Virus genome (UHGV): UHGV-0280588
Strand: one strand, 5' to 3'
Length of the DNA stretch: 10,694 nt
From: a virus
Below are positions 929 to 8,799 of this stretch, in pieces. Both the position numbers and the translations under genes were made by a program. Each line of letters starts with the position of its first letter. The first letter of the stretch is position 1. Under the pieces are notes generated by a model. It saw only the letters and a program-made list of their open reading frames with translations. It had not been told where the DNA came from and made no database searches.

Positions 929-3376
929 TTAACCGTCATGCATCATGCTGGCACGGGCGCGCACACGTTTATCCCGCTCGTATTTTTCGAGCGCATCCTG
1001 TAACTGGCGGTCAAGCTGTGTCCCCGGCGCAGTACCACCCGTCAGGCTGATGTGATATTCGTTTTTACTCTGGTCCACATAAGAGCGGCCAGCCGGTGCC
1101 GTGACCGGCTGATAAGCCTGATAGCCTGCATAAGAGCTGGTCGCCGGAATATAACCACCGGTGCCATACGTGGCGGCATGAGTTCTGGCGGCGGTCTGGT
1201 CAAGTGTGTCTGACTCTTTGTTGATAACACCGAGTTTTTCCAGTACCCAGTCAATACCGCTGCGCAGTTTGTTGAACGCATTAAGCGGCAGCATCAGCGC
1301 GTCAGCCAGTGCCTGCCCGAACATGACGCCCGTGTCACGGCAACGGTTCAGGGTGTCCTGTGTGGCTTTAACCGGAGCAATCAGGTTTGTAAACCACTGC
1401 CACGCGGCCTGTAACTTTTCGCCCAGCCAGTCAAACACCGGCTTAAGTGGCGTGAACAGCTCCCCCACCGGCGCAAATGCCGCTTTCAGCCCTTCAACCA
1501 CACCGCCAAAGAATGCGCTGACAGGCTCCCAGTATTTACGGATAAGCAACGCCCCGGCGACAATGGCAGCCACCACGGCCACAACCGGCCAGCTAATCGC
1601 ACCGATGGCCGTCATAACGGCACTACCAACCGTCGTGAAGATTGCCCCCATTGCGCCTGCTGCCGCGATAATGGCATTGATGCCGGTGATAACCGGCCAG
1701 GCTACAAGGCCAATGGCACCGATGATGCCAGTCAGCGCCAGTGCACCGCCGGCAATGATGCCGATGGTTGACGCCAGTGATTTGTTTTTCTGTATCCAGC
1801 CGTCGAGTTTTAACACATACTTTGTGGCCGTCTGCGTGAGCTTACGCAGCGCGCCTTCCTGCTGGTCAAACAGGTCAGTCCCCACAGCCTCATAAGCGGA
1901 CTGAAACTCCTTAAAGTCACCGCCGAGGTTATCCTGCATGATTTTAACCAGCTCTTCCGTTTTACTGTCCGAGGCTTTCAGCGTGGCGGTCAGCGTATCC
2001 AGTTTTCCGCTTGCTGCCGCTGCCAGTAAAACGTTCGCTGATTTCAGGGCTTCCTCACCAAAAATGGTTTTAAGGTATTCCCCCTTCTGAGACGTTCCCA
2101 GCTTGTGTTTATCAAAGCTGGCCTGAATCTCTTTCAGAATGGTGAACAACGGACGCATATTTCCCTTTTTGTCCGAGGTTTTAACGCCAAGCTCTTTGAG
2201 TGCATCCCATGCTTTTCCAGTCGGAGCCTGTAATCGGGTGACAACGGCACTACTACCCGTACCCGCCATTGACCCCCTGATGTTATTGTCATGCAGCACA
2301 CCGGTCATGGCTGCTGCCTGCTCAAGACTTACACCTGCCGTTCTTGCGACCGGACCGAGGTAAGTCAGTGCATCACTGAGTCCCTGAAAATCAGCCGCCG
2401 ACTTATTCATCGTTGCCGACAACACGTCGCCCACATGGCTGACATCATCATTTGACAGTTGAAAGGATGCCTTAGTCCCCAGCAACAGTTGCGCGTTTTC
2501 TTCCATCGACCGCTGATTCGCCAGCGCCATATTCAGCGTGACCGGCGTTGCCGCCTGAATGGCATCAACATCCCCACCCGCTTTCGCGATGATTATCTGT
2601 GCACCGGCCGCATCATCCGCCGAGGCGGCGGTATTGTCGCCGAGCTGGCGCGCCTGTTTGCGTAGTGCGGTCATTTCGGCGGAGTCTTTTGCCACTCCGA
2701 GCACGGCCTGCAATTCTGAGTTTTTCTGCGCAAACTCATAACCGGGCATCAGCAACTTAACTCCGGCCATCGTTCCCGCCGCCGCAATCCCCACACCGGC
2801 AGCGCCCACTGAGGCCATATTTCCGGCCAGTTCCTTTCCGGCCTGATAACGCTGTTTTACTGCGTTAAGTTTTGCCTGTTGCGCACTGACACGCGCCAGC
2901 GCGTCACGCTGACGGTTAAGCTGTGCGGTGGTTTCACTGATACGATTTTTCAGTCCCTGCTCATCATGTGCAAGATTGCGGGTATTAATTCCCACAGCGG
3001 CCAGTTCCCGCTGCTGGCGTTTAACGGAATCCGTCAGGCGGTTATATTTCGCCTGTAAGTCCTCCGCCGCACGCTTTGCGGATTCCAGCACTTTCGCCTG
3101 AGCACGGGTCGGACGTTCGGTGTTTTTAAACTGTGTGGCAAGGGCTTCGGCCTCCTGCCGTGCCTTTTCAAGTGCATGACCAGTTACGGCGAGCTGTGCA
3201 CTGGTCTTGCGAAATCCCTCAATACGGGATGCGTGACCGTTCAGCTCGCGCAGTGATTTTTGTGTTTCCCGGATATCCCCCGACAGCGACCTGCTCGCTG
3301 TGCGGATGGATTTAAACGGGCGGGATGCCTGGTCAACAGCCCTGAGCAATACCTGTAATTTTACATTGTTACTCAT
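929..3376 (-). CDS. T: Tail tape measure protein (gpT-like)
   Basis: 815-aa ORF with a coiled-coil-like N-terminal half (many Q/R/A/L/E), a long Gly/Ala/Ile-rich hydrophobic block (IGIIAGGALALTGIIGAIGLVAWPVITGINAIIAAAGAMGAIFTTVGSAV...) and a C-terminal region, typical of tape measure proteins. Lies directly after E/E' as in P2. Confidence 0.92.
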   Translation of the reverse strand: MSNNVKLQVLLRAVDQASRPFKSIRTASRSLSGDIRETQKSLRELNGHASRIEGFRKTSAQLAVTGHALEKARQEAEALATQFKNTERPTRAQAKVLESAKRAAEDLQAKYNRLTDSVKRQQRELAAVGINTRNLAHDEQGLKNRISETTAQLNRQRDALARVSAQQAKLNAVKQRYQAGKELAGNMASVGAAGVGIAAAGTMAGVKLLMPGYEFAQKNSELQAVLGVAKDSAEMTALRKQARQLGDNTAASADDAAGAQIIIAKAGGDVDAIQAATPVTLNMALANQRSMEENAQLLLGTKASFQLSNDDVSHVGDVLSATMNKSAADFQGLSDALTYLGPVARTAGVSLEQAAAMTGVLHDNNIRGSMAGTGSSAVVTRLQAPTGKAWDALKELGVKTSDKKGNMRPLFTILKEIQASFDKHKLGTSQKGEYLKTIFGEEALKSANVLLAAAASGKLDTLTATLKASDSKTEELVKIMQDNLGGDFKEFQSAYEAVGTDLFDQQEGALRKLTQTATKYVLKLDGWIQKNKSLASTIGIIAGGALALTGIIGAIGLVAWPVITGINAIIAAAGAMGAIFTTVGSAVMTAIGAISWPVVAVVAAIVAGALLIRKYWEPVSAFFGGVVEGLKAAFAPVGELFTPLKPVFDWLGEKLQAAWQWFTNLIAPVKATQDTLNRCRDTGVMFGQALADALMLPLNAFNKLRSGIDWVLEKLGVINKESDTLDQTAARTHAATYGTGGYIPATSSYAGYQAYQPVTAPAGRSYVDQSKNEYHISLTGGTAPGTQLDRQLQDALEKYERDKRVRARASMMHDG

Positions 3377-3796
3377 TCGTGTTTCCGCTTCGCCGGAGCG
3401 CCTTTTCGCGCCATGTGATGAGTTCGGTCAGGCTCATGGGATACAGTTCTGATGGCGGCCAGTGAAATATCACTGCCACATCCGCCATCAGGTCATCGAC
3501 CGAGAGATTTTTCGGAAACGTCACTGCACCGAGTTCGGCGACAAAAAACCAACCACCTTACCGGCCAGCGCCACAAGGTCAGGCAGCTCCAGTGCGGCAA
3601 CCTCCTGCTCGGTCAGCATCGGTGCCGTCATGCGCGGCAGCACTTTAATCAGTGCATCGACTTCGGAGTTCGCGACCGCAGCCAGACTGACACCGCGCAG
3701 CGTCCCGGCACTGGGTTTCATCAGCGTGACCTGTTCGATAACCTGCTCACCACGCTTGACCGGATTGTCCAGGGTAATCACATTTTCTTTGTTCAT
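3369..3796 (-). CDS. E': Tail assembly chaperone E+E' made by -1 programmed ribosomal frameshift
   Basis: Slipping -1 at T_TTT_TTG (minus strand, 3548-3542) continues as VAELGAVTFPKNLSVDDLMADVAVIFHWPPSELYPMSLTELITWREKALRRSGNTNE (57 codons) to TAA at 3371-3369, overlapping the tape measure ATG (3376-3374). This is the arrangement reported for P2 E/E' and for lambda G/GT. Confidence 0.78.
3521..3796 (-). CDS. E: Tail assembly chaperone E (gpE-like), frame-0 product
   Basis: 91-aa ORF MNKENVITLDNPVKRGEQVIEQVTLMKPSAGTLRGV...AGKVVGFLSPNSVQ between the tube gene and the tape measure gene; small acidic chaperone in the position of P2 E. Confidence 0.88.
   Translation of the reverse strand: MNKENVITLDNPVKRGEQVIEQVTLMKPSAGTLRGVSLAAVANSEVDALIKVLPRMTAPMLTEQEVAALELPDLVALAGKVVGFLSPNSVQ
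3542..3548 (-). promoter_or_regulatory. Slippery heptamer T_TTT_TTG for the E/E' -1 frameshift
   Basis: Plus strand 3541-3550 is acaaaaaacc, so the minus strand reads GGT TTT TTG in the E frame; the -1 frame is open for 57 codons from here. Confidence 0.75.
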
Positions 3797-3852: not shown

Positions 3853-4371
3853 TCACAGGCCGATATTGCGGCGGTGTTGCTCCAGCCGGTCGACGCCGTT
3901 CACCTTCTCAATCATGTTGATGGTGTCGATTTCGACCAGCTCCTTACCGTCCATCGTCAGCCGGAAATAGGTGCAGACCACGGAGATTTTCGACTCGGTG
4001 TCTTCTCCCTGTTTCCCCTCGCCGGTGTCGATTTCTTTCTGACGTCCACGCATGACCACTTCAACGGCCACCGTTTCGCCGGTATCGTCACGCTGGTAAG
4101 AGCCAGCAAAACGAATCGGCACGGCATCCACACCGGTTGCGGCGTAAAGCTCCCAGATAACCGAATCCGGGAAGCCCCCGAGCGACCACTCCATTGACAG
4201 CGCATCGTCATCAAGGCCGAGGTCTACCGGTGCGCTTCCGTTCATCCCCGCACCGCGATAGTTTTCGAGTTTACGGGTCAGTTTTGGCAGCGTGACGGAC
4301 TTTGCAACGCCCTGATAGCTGTAGCCGTTCAGAAAGACGTTCATTAACTTGAGTTTGCGCGGCATTGCCAT
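3853..4371 (-). CDS. FII: Tail tube protein (gpFII-like)
   Basis: 172-aa ORF MAMPRKLKLMNVFLNGYSYQGVAKSVTLPKLTRKLENYRGAGMNGSAPVDLGLDD... directly downstream of the sheath gene (12-bp gap); matches contractile-tail tube proteins of the P2 FII family. Confidence 0.92.
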   Translation of the reverse strand: MAMPRKLKLMNVFLNGYSYQGVAKSVTLPKLTRKLENYRGAGMNGSAPVDLGLDDDALSMEWSLGGFPDSVIWELYAATGVDAVPIRFAGSYQRDDTGETVAVEVVMRGRQKEIDTGEGKQGEDTESKISVVCTYFRLTMDGKELVEIDTINMIEKVNGVDRLEQHRRNIGL

Positions 4372-4383
4372 CGGTCAGGCTCC

Positions 4384-5574
4384 TTAATTGCTGTTAACCG
4401 AGGTGACCAGATTTGCCAGGTATTTATCGGTAATACGCTGGCGCAGGGTCAGGTTTTCAAGAGGAGGCACCGGAGTATAGTCGTAGTCGATATACAGTTT
4501 TCCGGCCTTAAGGGTTTCCGCATCGTTGGATTCTTCGCTGAACCAGCAGGTCGCATCCACGATATAGCCGTTTGTTTTCAGCTCACGGAATTTGGCATTG
4601 ATGCCGTCAACGATGTCGCGAATCAGCGTTGCGGTGATGGGCTTGTCCACCGCCCACATGTGCGCCTCAGCCATCGTGTCGGCCAGCACCTGCGCGGTGC
4701 GGGTGTAGTTTTCAAAGAGGAACAGCGGGTCATCAGAGCAGGTACGGTTACCCCAGAAGCGGAAACCGTCGCGGCGAATCAGCGTTGTGACGCCTGACTC
4801 GTTAAGCAGGTCAGCATCGGTGCCGGACTCCTGCAAATCCCAGAATACAGAGGCGCTGATGCCGGTAACACCGTTCACCCCGACATTGGACAGCGTTTTA
4901 TGCCAGCCCTGCTCCTGGTCAATTCTGGCTCGCAGACCCAGCGCACGGGCGGTGGCATATGCGGTGGCGGTGGTACTGGTGACCGTATCCCATGCGAGGA
5001 AATCCGGCCAGATGACCATCAGCTCACGCTGGCTGAAATTCTGGCGGTAGGCTTTCACCTCGGAAATGGTCTTACAGCCCCATGCGCTGATATATCCGAA
5101 AGCGCGCAGCTTCTGACAGACTGATGCCAGTGCAACAGCCACCTCTTTGGTATCCAGCCCCGGCACACCAAGAATACGCGGTTTAACACCGGTTACCGAC
5201 TCTGCCGCCAGCAGAGCTTTCAGTCCGGTGTACTGACCATTTTCGTCGGTGGTGCCGATGATATTGGAAACGGTCTGCGCGAGTTTCGTTTCTTCGTCGT
5301 CGCCGGTGCCGTCTTCCACACGCACGACAACGGTGACCGGTTTTGACTGGTCAGCGATGGCCTGCAGCGACGCCGCCAGCGTGCCTTTTTTACCGGCCTT
5401 TGCAATTGCGCTCTGCACATTGGTAATCAGCACCGGTTTATTGAGGGGGAAGATTTCCGCATCCGCATCGCTGGCCGTGCAGACCATGCCGACAATGGCG
5501 GTGGATACGGTGGAAATGACGCGGGTGCCGTCGTTAATCTCCAGCACCTGCACGCCGTGATGATAGTCACTCAT
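4384..5574 (-). CDS. FI: Tail sheath protein (gpFI-like)
   Basis: 396-aa ORF MSDYHHGVQVLEINDGTRVISTVSTAIVGMVCTASDAD...; N-terminus and length match P2-type sheath proteins; followed by tube, E/E', T, U, D in P2 order. Confidence 0.93.
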   Translation of the reverse strand: MSDYHHGVQVLEINDGTRVISTVSTAIVGMVCTASDADAEIFPLNKPVLITNVQSAIAKAGKKGTLAASLQAIADQSKPVTVVVRVEDGTGDDEETKLAQTVSNIIGTTDENGQYTGLKALLAAESVTGVKPRILGVPGLDTKEVAVALASVCQKLRAFGYISAWGCKTISEVKAYRQNFSQRELMVIWPDFLAWDTVTSTTATAYATARALGLRARIDQEQGWHKTLSNVGVNGVTGISASVFWDLQESGTDADLLNESGVTTLIRRDGFRFWGNRTCSDDPLFLFENYTRTAQVLADTMAEAHMWAVDKPITATLIRDIVDGINAKFRELKTNGYIVDATCWFSEESNDAETLKAGKLYIDYDYTPVPPLENLTLRQRITDKYLANLVTSVNSN

Positions 5575-5633: not shown

Positions 5634-6227
5634 CTATTTGTCCCGGTTGGCTAAGGGATGACACAATTTATTCTTTGTCGCTGATGAGGGGAATTTTTTA
5701 TAGAGCGTGGACAGGCCAATATCAAAAATCAGCGCCACACGTTGACGAGATTCCCCCGCAGCCAGCAACCGTCCGACCTGCTCCCACTCACTCGCGGTGA
5801 GTTTCGGACGTCTGCCACCAATACGGCCTTTGGCTCTGGCCGCTTCCAGTCCGGCGCGTGTCCGCTCGACAATGAGTTCTCGTTCCATTTCAGCCAGGGC
5901 ACCCATCACATGAAAGAAAAAACGCCCCATCGGCGTGCTGGTATCAATAGCATCCGTCAGGCTGCGAAAATTAATGCCGCGTTCGCGCAGTTCCTCAACC
6001 AGAATGACCAGATGCCGCATACTACGCCCCAGCCTGTCCAGCTTCCAGACCACCAGAGTGTCACCTGCTGATAATGTTCTGAGCAGTTTTTTCAGTCCCG
6101 GTCGGTCGGACTTCGTGCCGCTGATTTTATCCTCAAAAATCAGCTCACATCCTGCGCACTCCAGCGCGTTACGCTGCAATTCCGTGTTCTGGTCATTTGT
6201 TGACACGCGTACATAGCCAATAAGCAT
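5634..6227 (-). CDS. pin: Serine DNA invertase, Gin/Pin/Hin/Cin family
   Basis: Translation MLIGYVRVSTNDQNTELQRNALECAGCELIFEDKISGTKSDRPGLKKLLRTLSAGDTLVVWKLDRLGRSMRHLVILVEELRERGINFRSLTDAIDTSTPMGRFFFHVMGALAEMERELIVERTRAGLEAARAKGRIGGRRPKL... carries the catalytic YVRVST serine motif and is near-identical in pattern to Gin/Pin as I recall them. Start set at the second ATG (6227-6225), which aligns with the MLIGYVRV start of homologues and has AGGGGGA well spaced upstream; the track's start at 6233 adds two residues. Confidence 0.92.
   Translation of the reverse strand: MLIGYVRVSTNDQNTELQRNALECAGCELIFEDKISGTKSDRPGLKKLLRTLSAGDTLVVWKLDRLGRSMRHLVILVEELRERGINFRSLTDAIDTSTPMGRFFFHVMGALAEMERELIVERTRAGLEAARAKGRIGGRRPKLTASEWEQVGRLLAAGESRQRVALIFDIGLSTLYKKFPSSATKNKLCHPLANRDK
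6120..6144. promoter_or_regulatory. Candidate recombinational enhancer / Fis-binding palindrome inside the 5' part of pin
   Basis: gctgatttt (6120-6128) and aaaatcagc (6136-6144) are exact reverse complements around a 7-bp spacer, with G...C ends and an AT-rich centre like Fis sites. It lies about 85-105 bp into the invertase gene, where Hin/Gin/Cin enhancers are located. Confidence 0.3.
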
Positions 6228-6282
6228 GAGCATCCCCCTGAATAAAAACCGGAGATGATGCCACTTGCCCGTTATCTATGCA

Positions 6283-6308
6283 TTTTCATAAACGTTGGTT
6301 TGGGAGAA
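6283..6308. promoter_or_regulatory. Invertase crossover site (gix/hix-like, pin-proximal)
   Basis: TTTTCATAAACG TT GGTTTGGGAGAA, a 12+2+12 site closely resembling hixL (TTCTTGAAAACC AA GGTTTTTGATAA as recalled). The inner half-site plus 9 further bases (6295-6315, ttggtttgggagaagccagat) recur in inverted orientation at 7731-7751. Confidence 0.72.
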
Positions 6309-6989
6309 GCCAGATTCTCTGGTCGTTTGTTAAACACGAATATTTTTAAAAGCTCTGGAAAATATATCCCAACACCAGGGACAAAAAAGATAAGGGTCAT
6401 TGCCTCTGGTGGCGGTGGCGGCGGCGGTGGGGTTCCTGAAACAACAGAAAATCAGCAGGCAACAGCCGGAGCTGGATTGAGCGGCGCATTTATTGAAGCA
6501 TTTTTCGAGGTTGATAATGATTTCGAAGTCAACGTTATTATCGGTGCTGCAGGTAAAGGTGGGGGAGCCGGAAGAAATTCAGGTAGTGAAGGTGGCACAA
6601 CTTATTTCGGTTCCATGATAACTGCACCTGGTGGTACAGGCGGTGGCGCGGGGGGAGCATCTGCAAACACATCATATATTCAGGGTATTTCATGGGGTGC
6701 CAGTCCGACATCGTCCGGTACTGTACTAAGAGCATTTCGCTGTAGTGCAAAAACACCAGGAGCAATGGTTATCTCTGTTAAAGCTGTAGCAGGTGGTACC
6801 GGGGGGGATACACCATTAGGTTCAGGCGGTATAGGTGGTGCAAGTTCTTCATCATTCAGCGGACGTGGTGGTGGTAAAGCTGAGGGCTTTGGTGCTGGCG
6901 GAGGCGGAGCCTGCGCACCTGCTGGAAGTGAGGCTCAATCGGGAGGTGACGGTGCCCCGGGAATAGTTATTGTTGAGGAGTATGCCTGA
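6297..6989 (+). CDS. Silent alternative tail-fibre C-terminal cassette, glycine-rich (230 aa), expressed only after inversion
   Basis: Plus-strand frame GLGEARFSGRLLNTNIFKSSGKYIPTPGTKKIRVIASGGGGGGGGVPE...GAPGIVIVEEYA shares the crossover-encoded GLGEAR with the H constant part in the same codon phase (junction codon xTT at both sites). Part of track ORF 6255-6989, whose ATG lies outside the segment. Confidence 0.72.
   Translation, partial: GLGEARFSGRLLNTNIFKSSGKYIPTPGTKKIRVIASGGGGGGGGVPETTENQQATAGAGLSGAFIEAFFEVDNDFEVNVIIGAAGKGGGAGRNSGSEGGTTYFGSMITAPGGTGGGAGGASANTSYIQGISWGASPTSSGTVLRAFRCSAKTPGAMVISVKAVAGGTGGDTPLGSGGIGGASSSSFSGRGGGKAEGFGAGGGGACAPAGSEAQSGGDGAPGIVIVEEYA
6408..6431 (+). repeat. 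(GGY)8 trinucleotide run encoding Gly8
   Basis: GGT GGC GGT GGC GGC GGC GGT GGG read directly from the sequence, inside the glycine-rich cassette. Confidence 0.9.
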
Positions 6990-7255
6990 TGAGTAATTTT
7001 GCTCTGATTGAACATGGCGTGGTGAAAAATATTATTATCTGGGATGGAGAGGGGGATTTATTCTCTAATTGCGAAATTATAAATATTGATCATATAGATG
7101 CAGGCGTCGGTTGGTTCTATTCTGACGGAGAGTTTATAGCACCACCGGAACCGGAAATGACTGAATATGATGTTGGTAATATCGACGCGGTGATGGAAGC
7201 AGATACCAGCACCGCGCCGGGGGTTATCTGGCCAGTTCCACCTGAGATGGTTTAA
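6989..7255 (+). CDS. Putative short tail-fibre assembly/chaperone protein for the glycine-rich cassette
   Basis: 88-aa ORF whose ATG overlaps the cassette stop (ATGA). C-terminus ...DTSTAPGVIWPVPPEMV resembles the conserved C-terminal motif of lambda Tfa as I recall it (...RVDTSTAPDIEWPAVPVME). Much shorter than typical Tfa/gpG/U proteins (about 175-195 aa). Confidence 0.5.
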   Translation: MSNFALIEHGVVKNIIIWDGEGDLFSNCEIINIDHIDAGVGWFYSDGEFIAPPEPEMTEYDVGNIDAVMEADTSTAPGVIWPVPPEMV

Positions 7256-7511
7256 TCTCAATCAGAATGGGTTCGCCCTTCTCGTTAACAGATATTTCCA
7301 TTCCTTCAGGGATTTCAGATGCAGTAAAAAACCAGTTATCTTCTGGTAATTCCACAGCCCCGGTCACGTCATGAAGACCGGGGATTACTTCAGTCAAAGT
7401 AACAGGATTAAACAGGCGCACAATAAACTCTCCAGGAAAAAGCACTTGTTGATGGTCTTCCGTCGTACATCTGGCAGCGGACATAAAAACCTGTATTACT
7501 GACCTGGTCAT
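7224..7511 (-). CDS. Uncertain small ORF, possibly a tail-fibre assembly/chaperone protein for the current fibre variant; start not resolved
   Basis: 95-aa frame MTRSVIQVFMSAARCTTEDHQQVLFPGEFIVRLFNPVTLTEVIPGLHDVTGAVELPEDNWFFTASEIPEGMEISVNEKGEPILIEIKPSQVELAR. It overlaps the 3' end of H (stop at 7408-7410) in another frame; the ATG starts at 7511 and 7484 overlap by 104 and 77 nt, and in-frame GTG codons at 7445 and 7421 would give shorter overlaps. Its 3' end overlaps the plus-strand ORF by 32 bp. Confidence 0.35.
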   Translation of the reverse strand: MTRSVIQVFMSAARCTTEDHQQVLFPGEFIVRLFNPVTLTEVIPGLHDVTGAVELPEDNWFFTASEIPEGMEISVNEKGEPILIEIKPSQVELAR

Positions 7512-8799
7512 CCACGATCATTGAAACGTGAACGTTATTAGGTGTGGCCTCGTAATCTGTTCTTATTCTTTCCGCTATGCTGATAAAACGTGAAAGTTTA
7601 GGTAGTGCAATTGGATAAACGACTTTAGCCAGCCCATTATCATTGGAACCACCAGTTCCAAATACTTCTATTGCACCATCTGACCAGCGTATCCATGCAC
7701 CATTGACATTAGCTCCTCGCTGAATGACATATCTGGCTTCTCCCAAACCAAGGTATGCGAGAAGACCAGCAACATCCTTTCCACTCAAATTAGTCAGCGT
7801 ATTGTCCAGCGGTTGTTTGCCTGCCAGTGCATTAAGCACTGTTGTTGAAAAGTTAGGGTCATTCCCCAGCGCCGCCGCCAGTTCATTCAGTGTATCCAGT
7901 GCCGCAGGGGCAGAACCCACCATTGCCGCAATTGCTGATTTCACAAAAGCCGTGGTAGCAATCTGTGTATTGTTGACCGACTGTGCCGCCGTAGGTGCTG
8001 TTGGCGTTCCGGTAAGTGCGGGACTCGACAGCGGCGCTTTCAGCGCCAGCGTATTGTTAATGGTGGTACTGAATTTCGGGTCATTATTAATGGCTGCGGC
8101 AATTTCTTTCAGTGTGTCCAGCGTGGCTGGCGCACCGTTAATCAGAGCAGTAATAGCAGCCTGTACAAACGCAGTGGTCGCAATCCGCGTGGTGTTATTT
8201 CCTGCGGCAGGCGTCGGCGCTTTTGGTTCTCCGGTAAATGTCGGATTATGTTTCTGTGCATACTGGGTATGAGGATCCTGTGCGGCAATGTGGTTTCTCA
8301 TCTGGTCATCCACATAAAGCTTTAATTCCAGGACTTCATCATCCACGTATTTACGGGTCGCCAGTACCACCGACGGGTCGATTTTCAGCGTGATGGCTTC
8401 GGTATTCGTGACAACCAGAATCATGCGGATAGTCTGGGTACGACCGCTGCCTTCCTGCAACTGCGGTTTGTACGTTTCCGGGCAGTTCGCCACCGCAATG
8501 AGTACGCCTTCATCATCATAAAGCCCAATCTCACGGATCCAGAATCCGCCCTCGTTCTCAGGGATGATTTGCTCCGCAATAATCTGGCTCTGGTTGTTCG
8601 GGTCAACACTCAGAAGATTCAGCGGCGCAATGCGTTTCTGGTTAATCAGTTTTGTCTGTGCCGGGTCTGGTGTCGGCAAGACACCATTCGCATCACCAAC
8701 GGCCATTTGCGTCAGATTCAGCTTACTGCCGAGCATCGTCGCGTTAGCCAGCCGTGCTGCGCCCTGATTAGTCAGAATGGCGTAGTATTTCACTGTCAT
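7408..8799 (-). CDS. H: Tail fibre protein (gpH-like), current orientation: constant part 8799-7752, variable C-terminus 7749-7408
   Basis: 463-aa ORF; N-terminal domain MTVKYYAILTNQGAARL...MAVGD...GGFWIREIGLYDDEGVLIAVAN...YVDD is the conserved baseplate-attachment domain of P2 H / Mu S / P1 S type fibres, followed by two shaft repeats, then LGLGEAR at the crossover site and a 107-aa variable tail. ATG overlaps the gpI stop. Confidence 0.9.
   Translation of the reverse strand: MTVKYYAILTNQGAARLANATMLGSKLNLTQMAVGDANGVLPTPDPAQTKLINQKRIAPLNLLSVDPNNQSQIIAEQIIPENEGGFWIREIGLYDDEGVLIAVANCPETYKPQLQEGSGRTQTIRMILVVTNTEAITLKIDPSVVLATRKYVDDEVLELKLYVDDQMRNHIAAQDPHTQYAQKHNPTFTGEPKAPTPAAGNNTTRIATTAFVQAAITALINGAPATLDTLKEIAAAINNDPKFSTTINNTLALKAPLSSPALTGTPTAPTAAQSVNNTQIATTAFVKSAIAAMVGSAPAALDTLNELAAALGNDPNFSTTVLNALAGKQPLDNTLTNLSGKDVAGLLAYLGLGEARYVIQRGANVNGAWIRWSDGAIEVFGTGGSNDNGLAKVVYPIALPKLSRFISIAERIRTDYEATPNNVHVSMIVDDQVSNTGFYVRCQMYDGRPSTSAFSWRVYCAPV
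7738..7763. promoter_or_regulatory. Invertase crossover site (gix/hix-like, fibre-proximal), inside the H coding sequence
   Basis: TTCTCCCAAACC AA GGTATGCGAGAA on the plus strand; inner half-site identical to the reverse complement of the inner half of the 6283-6308 site, and the central dinucleotides (AA here, TT there) are complementary as inverted repeats require. Encodes LGLGEA of the fibre. Confidence 0.72.
7806..8244 (-). repeat. Diverged tandem duplication (2 units of about 219 bp, about 73 aa) in the tail-fibre shaft
   Basis: Protein repeats PTFTGEPKAPTPAAGNNTTRIATTAFVQAAITALINGAPATLDTLKEIAAAINNDPKFSTTINNTLALKA and PALTGTPTAPTAAQSVNNTQIATTAFVKSAIAAMVGSAPAALDTLNELAAALGNDPNFSTTVLNALAGKQ; also visible in the antisense plus-strand ORF 7724-8272. 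Boundaries are approximate. Confidence 0.7.

What the first reader, a model, noticed from the sequence alone, without database searches (positions are those of the whole stretch)
6255..6989. Silent glycine-rich alternative receptor-binding cassette, twice the size of the active one
The plus-strand cassette is dominated by Gly runs (SGGGGGGGGVPE, GAAGKGGGAGRNSGSEGG, APGGTGGGAGGASANTSY, GGTGGDTPLGSGGIGGASSSSFSGRGGGKAEGFGAGGGGACAPAGSEAQSGGDGAPG) separated by short non-Gly stretches. That layout recalls gp38-type adhesins of T2-like phages, where glycine-rich motifs frame hypervariable receptor-contact loops. The two cassettes are unrelated in sequence and very unequal in size, suggesting acquisition from a different fibre lineage. 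An in-frame ATG at 6255 lies just outside the segment, so a free 244-aa Gly-rich protein could in principle be made in the current orientation.
Basis: partly seen in the sequence, partly recalled or inferred. Interest (0 to 1): 0.6.

Follow-up and report, generated by a model that had tools for sequence, protein, structure and literature searches.

The report
Silent glycine-rich tail-fibre tip cassette
This is the switched-off alternative tip of a P2-like prophage tail fibre, a glycine-rich receptor-binding domain that a DNA invertase can flip into use; it is an ordinary host-range switch carrying a less familiar type of tip.

Summary
ORF 6255-6989 (+) is real, 244 aa, and 26% glycine over its cassette part, against 5-11% in the window's other proteins. 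It lies inside a roughly 1,455-bp invertible segment. The segment is bounded by two inverted 26-bp crossover sites (6283-6308 and 7738-7763) and sits next to a Gin-like serine invertase.

Flipping the segment joins the cassette in frame to the constant part of fibre gene H, giving a 580-aa fibre. That fusion is annotated in E. coli UC4224, while its derivative UC4315 has the window's orientation. Among 5,426 complete E. coli genomes, 16 carry the fused junction and 17 the silent junction.

The downstream 88-aa ORF is a shortened tail-fibre assembly chaperone. Its best structural match is the Pam3 chaperone.

The in-frame ATG at 6255 is a family-wide feature of Pin-type segments. The e14 equivalent, stfE, is annotated as a pseudogene. 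No plus-strand promoter was predicted, and the leader shows no sign of coding constraint.

Verdict: a new member of known kinds, of modest interest.

The parts
6283..6308 (.). Left 26-bp crossover site, TTTTCATAAACG-TT-GGTTTGGGAGAA, with the central dinucleotide at 6295-6296
   Evidence: It is one arm of inverted repeat I1. The site was dissected. The pattern search finds only this site and its partner in the window. The inversion breakpoint seen in UC4224 falls here.
7738..7763 (.). Right 26-bp crossover site, TTCTCCCAAACC-AA-GGTATGCGAGAA, with the central dinucleotide at 7750-7751
   Evidence: No match was found in any of 200 shuffles.
6297..6989 (+). Silent glycine-rich fibre-tip cassette (230 aa plus stop), forming a TNF-like plus glycine-rich domain
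6255..6296 (+). 14-codon leader (MMPLARYLCIFINV) outside the segment. It lies in the invertase upstream region and the outer half of the crossover site, and is probably not a functional start.
   Evidence: The leader is conserved at DNA level in e14, L001 and L006 ahead of unrelated silent cassettes. Window versus L001 shows 4 non-synonymous and 2 synonymous codon changes.
6989..7255 (+). 88-aa shortened tail-fibre assembly chaperone, cognate to the glycine-rich tip
7224..7421 (-). 65-aa ORF following the active tip; function unknown, possibly its assembly factor
   Evidence: PHROG 5400, unknown function. Annotated as a hypothetical protein in RefSeq homologues.
7408..7751 (-). Currently expressed variable C-terminal part of the fibre, about 113 aa including the shared GLGEAR
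   Evidence: It is contiguous and in frame with the constant part.
7752..8799 (-). Constant N-terminal part (350 aa) of P2-type fibre protein H
   Evidence: Pfam Phage_tail_fib, E 3e-62. It follows gpI and gpJ on the same strand.
5634..6227 (-). Gin/Pin-family serine DNA invertase, starting at ATG 6227 or 6233. The enhancer-equivalent stretch is 6138-6209.
   Evidence: Pfam Resolvase plus HTH_7. Mu Gin 3uj3, E 2e-88. The N-terminus reads MLIGYVRVS. 58 of 72 nt are identical to the annotated P1 cin enhancer.

Best explanation
The window holds the tail module of a P2-like prophage. In it, the usual fibre-assembly gene after fibre gene H is replaced by a roughly 1.46-kb invertible segment and a Gin/Pin-family invertase.

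The segment carries two convergent modules, each a fibre C-terminus followed by a small accessory gene. Late transcription through J-I-H enters the segment from the right. In the present orientation it makes a 463-aa fibre with the short tip.

The invertase recombines the two 26-bp sites at their central dinucleotide. This places the glycine-rich module behind the constant 350 aa and gives a 580-aa fibre. The tip of that fibre is a TNF-like beta-sandwich carrying a lattice of extended glycine-rich strands, as in cyanophage Pam3 gp24. Its variable stretches between the conserved Gly motifs (inferred to be distal loops) would contact a different receptor.

The 88-aa gene that follows is a shortened assembly chaperone that flips with the tip. 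A lysogen population would therefore release particles with two host ranges.

What is shown:
- the anatomy of the locus;
- the in-frame fusion;
- both orientations occurring in nature;
- homology of the tip and of the chaperone.

What is inferred:
- receptor binding by the variable stretches;
- the polyglycine-II conformation of the Gly motifs;
- the trimeric state of the fibre;
- chaperone activity of the 88-aa protein;
- silence of the cassette in the present orientation.
For: Anatomy:
- Inverted repeat 6283-6315 / 7731-7763.
- Only two crossover sites in the window.
- Invertase with Resolvase and HTH_7 domains, E 2e-88 to Mu Gin.

Fusion:
- The predicted flipped product is 580 aa. It has the same length and register as the annotated tail protein of UC4224, with one substitution in the cassette.

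Inversion in nature:
- In UC4224 the segment 6292-7751 is 99.7% identical and collinear, while both flanks match on the opposite strand.
- UC4315, recorded as a mutant of UC4224, has the window's orientation.
- 16 genomes carry the fused junction and 17 the silent junction, of 5,426.

Tip:
- Pfam Gly_rich_2 above its cut-off.
- PHROG 6202 matches the constant part and the Gly-rich part as one fibre.
- AF2 pLDDT 90.5.
- Family profile E 7.8e-11 to Pam3 gp24.
- Distant homologues are fibre genes placed after baseplate genes.
- Gly motifs are conserved and inter-motif stretches are variable.

Chaperone.

Background: invertible fibre loci in P2-like E. coli prophages are documented (PMC4272514).
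Against: - No expression or adsorption data exist for this tip.
- tblastn of the cassette found nothing in 50,697 deposited phage records. No cultured phage demonstrates that it functions.
- The chaperone lacks the central helical region that mediates trimerisation in Pam3 gp25 (PMC9608196), so its competence is uncertain.
- Sequence differences between copies are too few (6 synonymous, 2 non-synonymous) to prove purifying selection.
- The enhancer was identified only by similarity within a coding region.
Confidence: 0.88

Rival explanations
1. In the present orientation, a free-standing 244-aa glycine-rich protein is made from ATG 6255 and has its own role. It could act as a detachable gp38-like adhesin or as a receptor-blocking factor.
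For: The ORF is intact and has an ATG with GGAG just upstream. PGAP annotates it as a CDS in OFF-state genomes. The ATGATG leader and its frame are kept in four diverged loci.
Against: - No sigma-70-like promoter was found on the plus strand upstream, and every upstream gene is on the other strand.
- GGAG is 0 or 3 nt from the two ATGs. From general knowledge of E. coli initiation, this is shorter than the usual spacing.
- The leader precedes unrelated silent cassettes. The e14 equivalent, stfE, is a curated pseudogene.
- Leader codons change mostly non-synonymously, 4 against 2.
- The leader DNA is the invertase upstream region plus half of the crossover site, which explains its conservation.
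- The product would lack any fibre-attachment or shaft domain.
- About half of the carrying genomes have the cassette fused to the fibre.
Confidence: 0.04
2. The cassette encodes a member of the T-even gp38 adhesin family captured by a P2-like prophage.
For: The sequence is glycine-rich, with conserved Gly motifs separated by variable stretches. The literature places Pam3 gp24, Bxb1 gp33 and gp29, S16 gp38 and ALK in one structural class of glycine-rich PPII-helix bundles (PMC13243192, PMC9608196).
Against: - No sequence similarity: only Gly_rich_2 was hit in Pfam, and no gp38 was found among PDB sequences with either the single sequence or the profile at E <= 10.
- The domain is fused to the fibre and sits on a TNF-like sandwich. 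gp38 is a separate monomer with an attachment domain and a beta-helix (PMC12032242).
Confidence: 0.03
3. The segment is a frozen relic. The glycine-rich cassette is a decaying remnant that is no longer switched or used.
For: The prophage context is unknown. The cassette is absent from deposited phage genomes. The chaperone is shortened.
Against: - The cassette and chaperone ORFs are intact and 98-100% identical across genomes.
- The invertase is intact and keeps its N-terminal catalytic motif.
- Both orientations are about equally frequent.
- A strain and its laboratory derivative differ in orientation.
Confidence: 0.05

Closest known systems
Gin/Cin/Pin/Hin-type invertible tail-fibre segments (Mu G segment, P1 C segment, e14 P segment, P2-like prophage loci of E. 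coli)
   Same: - An adjacent serine invertase, E 2e-88 to Mu Gin.
- Two inverted 26-bp sites with a 2-bp core.
- A constant fibre N-terminus outside the segment.
- Two convergent modules inside, each a variable C-terminus plus an accessory gene.
- The invertase 5' end faces the segment, as in e14.
- The leader and crossover sequence are nearly identical to those of e14.
   Different: The silent tip is a glycine-rich TNF-like domain, not one of the better-known tips. Its accessory gene is an 88-aa shortened Tfa instead of a 130-175-aa one.
Cyanophage Pam3 tail fibre gp24 with its chaperone gp25 (PDB 7YPX, 7YFW; PMC9608196)
   Same: - Shared GGGGxGG motifs and a shared terminal G-I-V-I-V strand.
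   Different: - About 29% identity.
- Here the domain is the end of a long P2-type fibre and is one of two switchable tips. Pam3 has a single short fibre with a helical shaft.
- The chaperone here lacks the helical trimerisation region.
Mycobacteriophage Bxb1 gp33 (tail wing brush) and gp29 (tail spike), PDB 9D93
   Different: They belong to a siphovirus tail tip rather than a fibre terminus, share 18-23% identity, and are not part of a switch.
T-even gp38 adhesins (Salmonella phage S16 gp38, PDB 6F45)
   Same: Same broad design: extended glycine-rich strands form a rigid scaffold that displays variable receptor-contact loops (PMC12032242, PMC9608196).
   Different: gp38 is a separate monomeric protein with an attachment domain, a beta-helix and a three-layer sandwich. 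No sequence or fold match was obtained here.
ALK/LTK extracellular TNF-like plus glycine-rich (TG) domain
   Different: It is a cytokine-binding domain of a eukaryotic receptor kinase, with 19-22% identity.

Membership tests
Gin/Pin-type invertible fibre segment | Adjacent serine recombinase of the invertase subfamily | tested here: met
   Resolvase plus HTH_7 domains. E 2e-88 to Mu Gin 3uj3. The N-terminus reads MLIGYVRVS.
Gin/Pin-type invertible fibre segment | Two 26-bp crossover sites in inverted orientation with matching 2-bp cores | tested here: met
   Sites at 6283-6308 and 7738-7763, with cores TT and AA.
Gin/Pin-type invertible fibre segment | Inversion joins the alternative C-terminus in frame to a constant N-terminus | tested here: met
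   The predicted 580-aa chimera equals the annotated UC4224 protein in length and register.
Gin/Pin-type invertible fibre segment | Both orientations occur | tested here: met
   UC4224 against UC4315. 16 ON and 17 OFF junctions in 5,426 genomes.
Gin/Pin-type invertible fibre segment | Fis-dependent enhancer in the 5' part of the invertase gene | tested here: inconclusive
   Window 6138-6209 aligns without gaps to the annotated P1 cin enhancer, 58 of 72 identical. The stretch is also coding sequence, so the similarity is not independent evidence. Fis binding was not tested.
Pam3 gp24-type glycine-rich fibre tip (Pfam Gly_rich_2, PF21722) | Match to the family HMM above its curated cut-off | tested here: met
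   32.6 bits against a cut-off of 24.3, covering profile positions 9-224 of 226.
Pam3 gp24-type glycine-rich fibre tip (Pfam Gly_rich_2, PF21722) | TNF-like sandwich plus glycine-rich domain fold | tested here: met
   [not shown]
Pam3 gp24-type glycine-rich fibre tip (Pfam Gly_rich_2, PF21722) | Sequence homology to a solved member | tested here: met
   The family profile gives E 7.8e-11 over residues 72-284 of Pam3 gp24.
Pam3 gp24-type glycine-rich fibre tip (Pfam Gly_rich_2, PF21722) | Glycine motifs adopt extended polyglycine-II/PPII conformation in a hydrogen-bonded lattice | not testable with these tools
DSSP leaves the Gly runs unassigned, which is compatible with this conformation but not diagnostic.
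Pam3 gp24-type glycine-rich fibre tip (Pfam Gly_rich_2, PF21722) | Located at the C-terminus of a fibre gene in a tail or baseplate module | tested here: met
T-even gp38 adhesin | Separate monomeric protein with an N-terminal attachment domain for the gp37 tip | tested here: not met
   The cassette is fused to the fibre in the ON state. The 14-residue leader is not a domain.
T-even gp38 adhesin | Sequence or fold membership (beta-helix plus three-layer polyglycine sandwich) | tested here: not met
   [not shown]
T-even gp38 adhesin | Conserved glycine-rich motifs alternating with variable segments | tested here: met
   Invariant or near-invariant Gly columns. The highest entropy is at residues 121-140 and 181-190.
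Caudo_TAP tail-fibre assembly proteins (for ORF 6989-7255) | Match to Pfam PF02413 | tested here: not met
   The 88-aa protein itself gives no hit. 29 of 50 aligned homologues do.
Caudo_TAP tail-fibre assembly proteins (for ORF 6989-7255) | Homologous N-terminal domain and C-terminal DTSxAPxxxWP motif | tested here: met
   The A2 profile hits Mu Tfa 5yvq_B at E 1e-10.
Caudo_TAP tail-fibre assembly proteins (for ORF 6989-7255) | Central helical region | tested here: not met
   About 45 residues are absent relative to the 130-aa homologues. The model shows no helix.

The most novel reading that the evidence does not exclude
The silent-orientation ORF is translated from ATG 6255/6258. This would give a free glycine-rich domain that acts on its own, for example by occupying the receptor as a superinfection block, or by docking on fibres in trans as gp38 does. 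The leader conserved across Pin-type segments would then be a functional start shared by all silent cassettes.
Probability: 0.04. Interest if true: 0.6.

Novelty: new member of a known kind. Interest (0 to 1): 0.27.

Why it matters
It adds a tip of the Pam3/ALK-like glycine-rich class to the set of cassettes that enterobacterial prophages swap by DNA inversion. This class has so far been solved only in a cyanophage and a mycobacteriophage.

The tip travels with a shortened chaperone as one module between two prophage lineages.

For phage engineering, it offers a compact, self-contained tip-plus-chaperone unit with defined junctions. For annotation, it explains the 'glycine-rich domain-containing protein' and 'carbohydrate kinase' labels given to these ORFs.

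It does not change the understanding of inversion switches.

Tried and rejected
- The single-sequence search of the cassette against PDB sequences found nothing. Only the family profile reached Pam3 gp24.
- tblastn of the cassette against 50,697 phage records found nothing. The low-complexity filter may contribute to this.
- NCBIfam gave no family for the cassette, either small ORF or the fibre.
- The literature search for PF21722 or 'glycine-rich domain-containing protein' returned only plant papers.
- The 88-aa protein alone hit nothing meaningful in PDB sequences; the ribonucleotide reductase hits at E about 0.9 are chance.
- The word-based homologue search for it found only near-identical proteins. 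The exhaustive representative search was needed to reach relatives.
- A third crossover site, which would make this a multi-cassette shufflon, was looked for and not found.
- The weak terminator-like hairpin at 6309-6323 lies within the inverted-repeat arm and was judged not meaningful.
- A diversity-generating mechanism was considered and rejected. Copies in E. coli are 98-100% identical, and no ORF of at least 50 aa in the window was identified as a reverse transcriptase, though not every ORF was scanned.

Full report
**Observation**

The plus-strand ORF 6255-6989 is present, starts with ATGATG and encodes 244 aa. Glycine makes up 26.3% of the cassette, against 4.6-10.5% in nine other proteins encoded in the window. 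The DNA shows a strong positive GC skew over 6300-7200.

The only minus-strand ORF of at least 50 aa wholly within this stretch is a 75-aa TTG ORF. The plus-strand frame matches Pfam Gly_rich_2 above its cut-off (32.6 against 24.3 bits). It also matches the C-terminal third of a PHROG tail-fibre family at E 4e-56. The feature is real and far beyond chance.

**Context**

The minus strand carries, in order:
- gpW, gpJ and gpI;
- a fibre gene at 7408-8799 with the P2-type N-terminal collar-fibre domain;
- a serine invertase;
- tail sheath, tail tube, gpE and the tape measure.

This order rests and on the RefSeq annotation of homologous loci. It is a P2-like tail module in which an invertible segment and an invertase follow the fibre gene. 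The flanks are 96-97% identical to those of Escherichia phages S164, a P2-type phage from O157:H43, and pro483.

**The switch**

An inverted repeat joins 6283-6315 to 7731-7763. Within it are two 26-bp sites of the hix/gix/pix type:
- TTTTCATAAACG-TT-GGTTTGGGAGAA at 6283-6308;
- TTCTCCCAAACC-AA-GGTATGCGAGAA at 7738-7763.

No third site exists in the window. Both inner half-sites encode GLGEAR.

The invertase has Resolvase and HTH_7 domains. It matches Mu Gin at E 2e-88 and begins MLIGYVRVS. Nucleotides 19-90 of its gene align without gaps to the annotated P1 cin enhancer, 58 of 72 identical. This is suggestive but not independent of coding constraint.

**Fusion and inversion in nature**

Recombining at the central dinucleotides predicts a 580-aa fibre made of 350 constant residues and 230 cassette residues. 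A protein of exactly that length and register is annotated in E. coli UC4224, with a single substitution in the cassette part.

At DNA level, window 6292-7751 is 99.7% identical and collinear with UC4224, while both flanks match on the opposite strand. This is a clean inversion at the two sites. UC4315, whose record calls it a mutant of UC4224, has the window's orientation.

Junction-specific searches of 5,426 complete E. coli genomes found 17 genomes with the silent junction and 16 with the fused junction. This near-even split is what an active switch should give. The same flanks are joined to other cassettes in over a thousand genomes. The glycine-rich tip is therefore a rare option, present in about 35 genomes.

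**What the cassette is**

Neither the single sequence nor Pfam links it to gp38. An AlphaFold model built on 45 homologues has mean pLDDT 90.5.

Foldseek agrees. A profile of the family reaches Pam3 gp24 by sequence alone at E 7.8e-11 across the whole domain, including the terminal G-I-V-I-V strand. No gp38 chain appears in any of these lists.

The Pam3 structure paper describes a TNF-like sandwich. Its strands extend into a four-layer lattice of twelve glycine-rich motifs, with a less conserved distal tip proposed to bind the receptor. The paper notes only a limited resemblance to S16 gp38, 52 C-alpha atoms (PMC9608196). A later paper groups the Pam3 fibre, Bxb1 gp33 and gp29, S16 gp38 and ALK as glycine-rich PPII-helix bundles (PMC13243192).

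The cassette therefore works like gp38 in broad design but belongs to the Pam3 gp24 / Gly_rich_2 family. gp38 itself is a separate monomer with an attachment domain and a beta-helix (PMC12032242). Neither feature is present here.

**Variability**

Across homologues of 31-43% identity, the glycine columns are invariant or nearly so. The N-terminal GRLLN...SGTYTPTPGTKKIRV motif and the C-terminal GAPGIVIVEEYA motif are conserved. Entropy peaks at residues 121-140, with a second peak at 181-190. Model confidence dips in roughly the same stretches (residues 121-130, 151-160 and 181-190).

Within E. coli the cassette is 98-100% identical, and the next relatives are at about 40%. Diversity therefore comes from swapping modules, not from local hypervariation.

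**Accessory gene**

ORF 6989-7255 (88 aa) has no Pfam hit. Its first 58 residues are 52% identical (E 2e-22) to the N-terminus of the Caudo_TAP protein that follows a distant glycine-rich fibre in Enterobacter. They are 34% identical to the equivalent protein in another E. coli prophage.

An exhaustive search found 212 relatives. The alignment shows that the 88-aa protein keeps both ends of the 130-aa assembly proteins, including the DTSxAP...WP motif. It lacks about 45 central, helix-forming residues.

**Mobility**

Window 6290-7233 covers the region from the crossover site to the convergent 3' ends of the two small ORFs. It is 98.4% identical in a different prophage type, one with a Baseplate_J/Phage_Wedge1 baseplate. 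There it is fused to a 113-aa constant part and paired with a different alternative cassette and its own 139-aa Caudo_TAP gene. The segment's lower GC points the same way.

**The free-protein idea**

The ATG lies 40 nt outside the crossover point. The following points argue against a functional start:
- No sigma-70-like promoter is predicted on the plus strand upstream, and all upstream genes are on the other strand.
- GGAG is 0 nt from the first ATG and 3 nt from the second.
- The same leader, ATGATGCCA..., precedes unrelated silent cassettes in UC4224, in the second prophage type and in K-12 e14. The e14 ORF, stfE, is curated as a pseudogene.
- Between the window and UC4224, the leader has four non-synonymous and two synonymous codon changes.
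- The leader DNA is the invertase upstream region plus the outer half of the crossover site, which accounts for its conservation.
- Any cassette is automatically in frame with the leader, because the crossover fixes the frame.

Expression is not excluded, but nothing supports it.

**Verdict**

This is a textbook inversion switch for fibre tips. Such switches are already documented in P2-like E. coli prophages (PMC4272514). This one carries a tip of the Pam3-type glycine-rich family and a shortened chaperone. It is a new member of known kinds.

The modestly new points are:
- this tip class sits in an invertible module of enterobacterial prophages;
- it is absent from 50,697 deposited phage genomes by tblastn;
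- its chaperone is truncated.

Noticed in passing
window 6989-7255 (+): The 88-aa accessory protein is a tail-fibre assembly homologue that keeps both termini but lacks about 45 central helical residues. Many relatives of 55-70 aa consist of the N-terminal domain alone.
   Followed up: yes
window 7224-7421 (-) and 7224-7255: The 65-aa ORF after the active tip (PHROG 5400, unknown function) converges on the 88-aa ORF, and the two overlap by 32 nt. The boundary of the mobile module (7233) falls in this overlap.
   Followed up: partly
L006-L008, about 4333-5276 (E. coli contigs): The same glycine-rich tip plus mini-chaperone module, 98.4% identical, sits in the invertible segment of a different prophage type. 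There it is in the expressed orientation as a 343-aa fibre, and this is the most widely recorded form, listed in 76 blocks of the contig collection.
   Followed up: partly
window 6255-6296; L009 3620-3660 (e14 of K-12): The leader MMPLARYLCIFINV before the crossover site is shared by Pin-type segments, including e14, whatever silent cassette follows it.
   Followed up: yes
proteins P0037 and P0042: Distant homologues of the glycine-rich tip are named 'carbohydrate kinase' by their sources. This is probably a misannotation, perhaps driven by the GGGGxGG motifs.
   Followed up: no
NZ_CP025840.1 (E. coli 214-4), about 18135-18434 and 5123228-5123528: One genome carries both a silent and a fused junction for this cassette, so it has two copies in opposite states.
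   Followed up: no
window 3369-3796 (-): Two small ORFs between the tube and tape-measure genes correspond to the P2 gpE / E+E' pair, which in P2 is expressed by programmed frameshifting. The RefSeq homologues annotate a tail assembly protein and a GpE family protein here.
   Followed up: no
window 6138-6209 (-): This stretch, inside the 5' end of the invertase gene, aligns to the annotated P1 cin recombinational enhancer, 58 of 72 identical with no gaps.
   Followed up: partly
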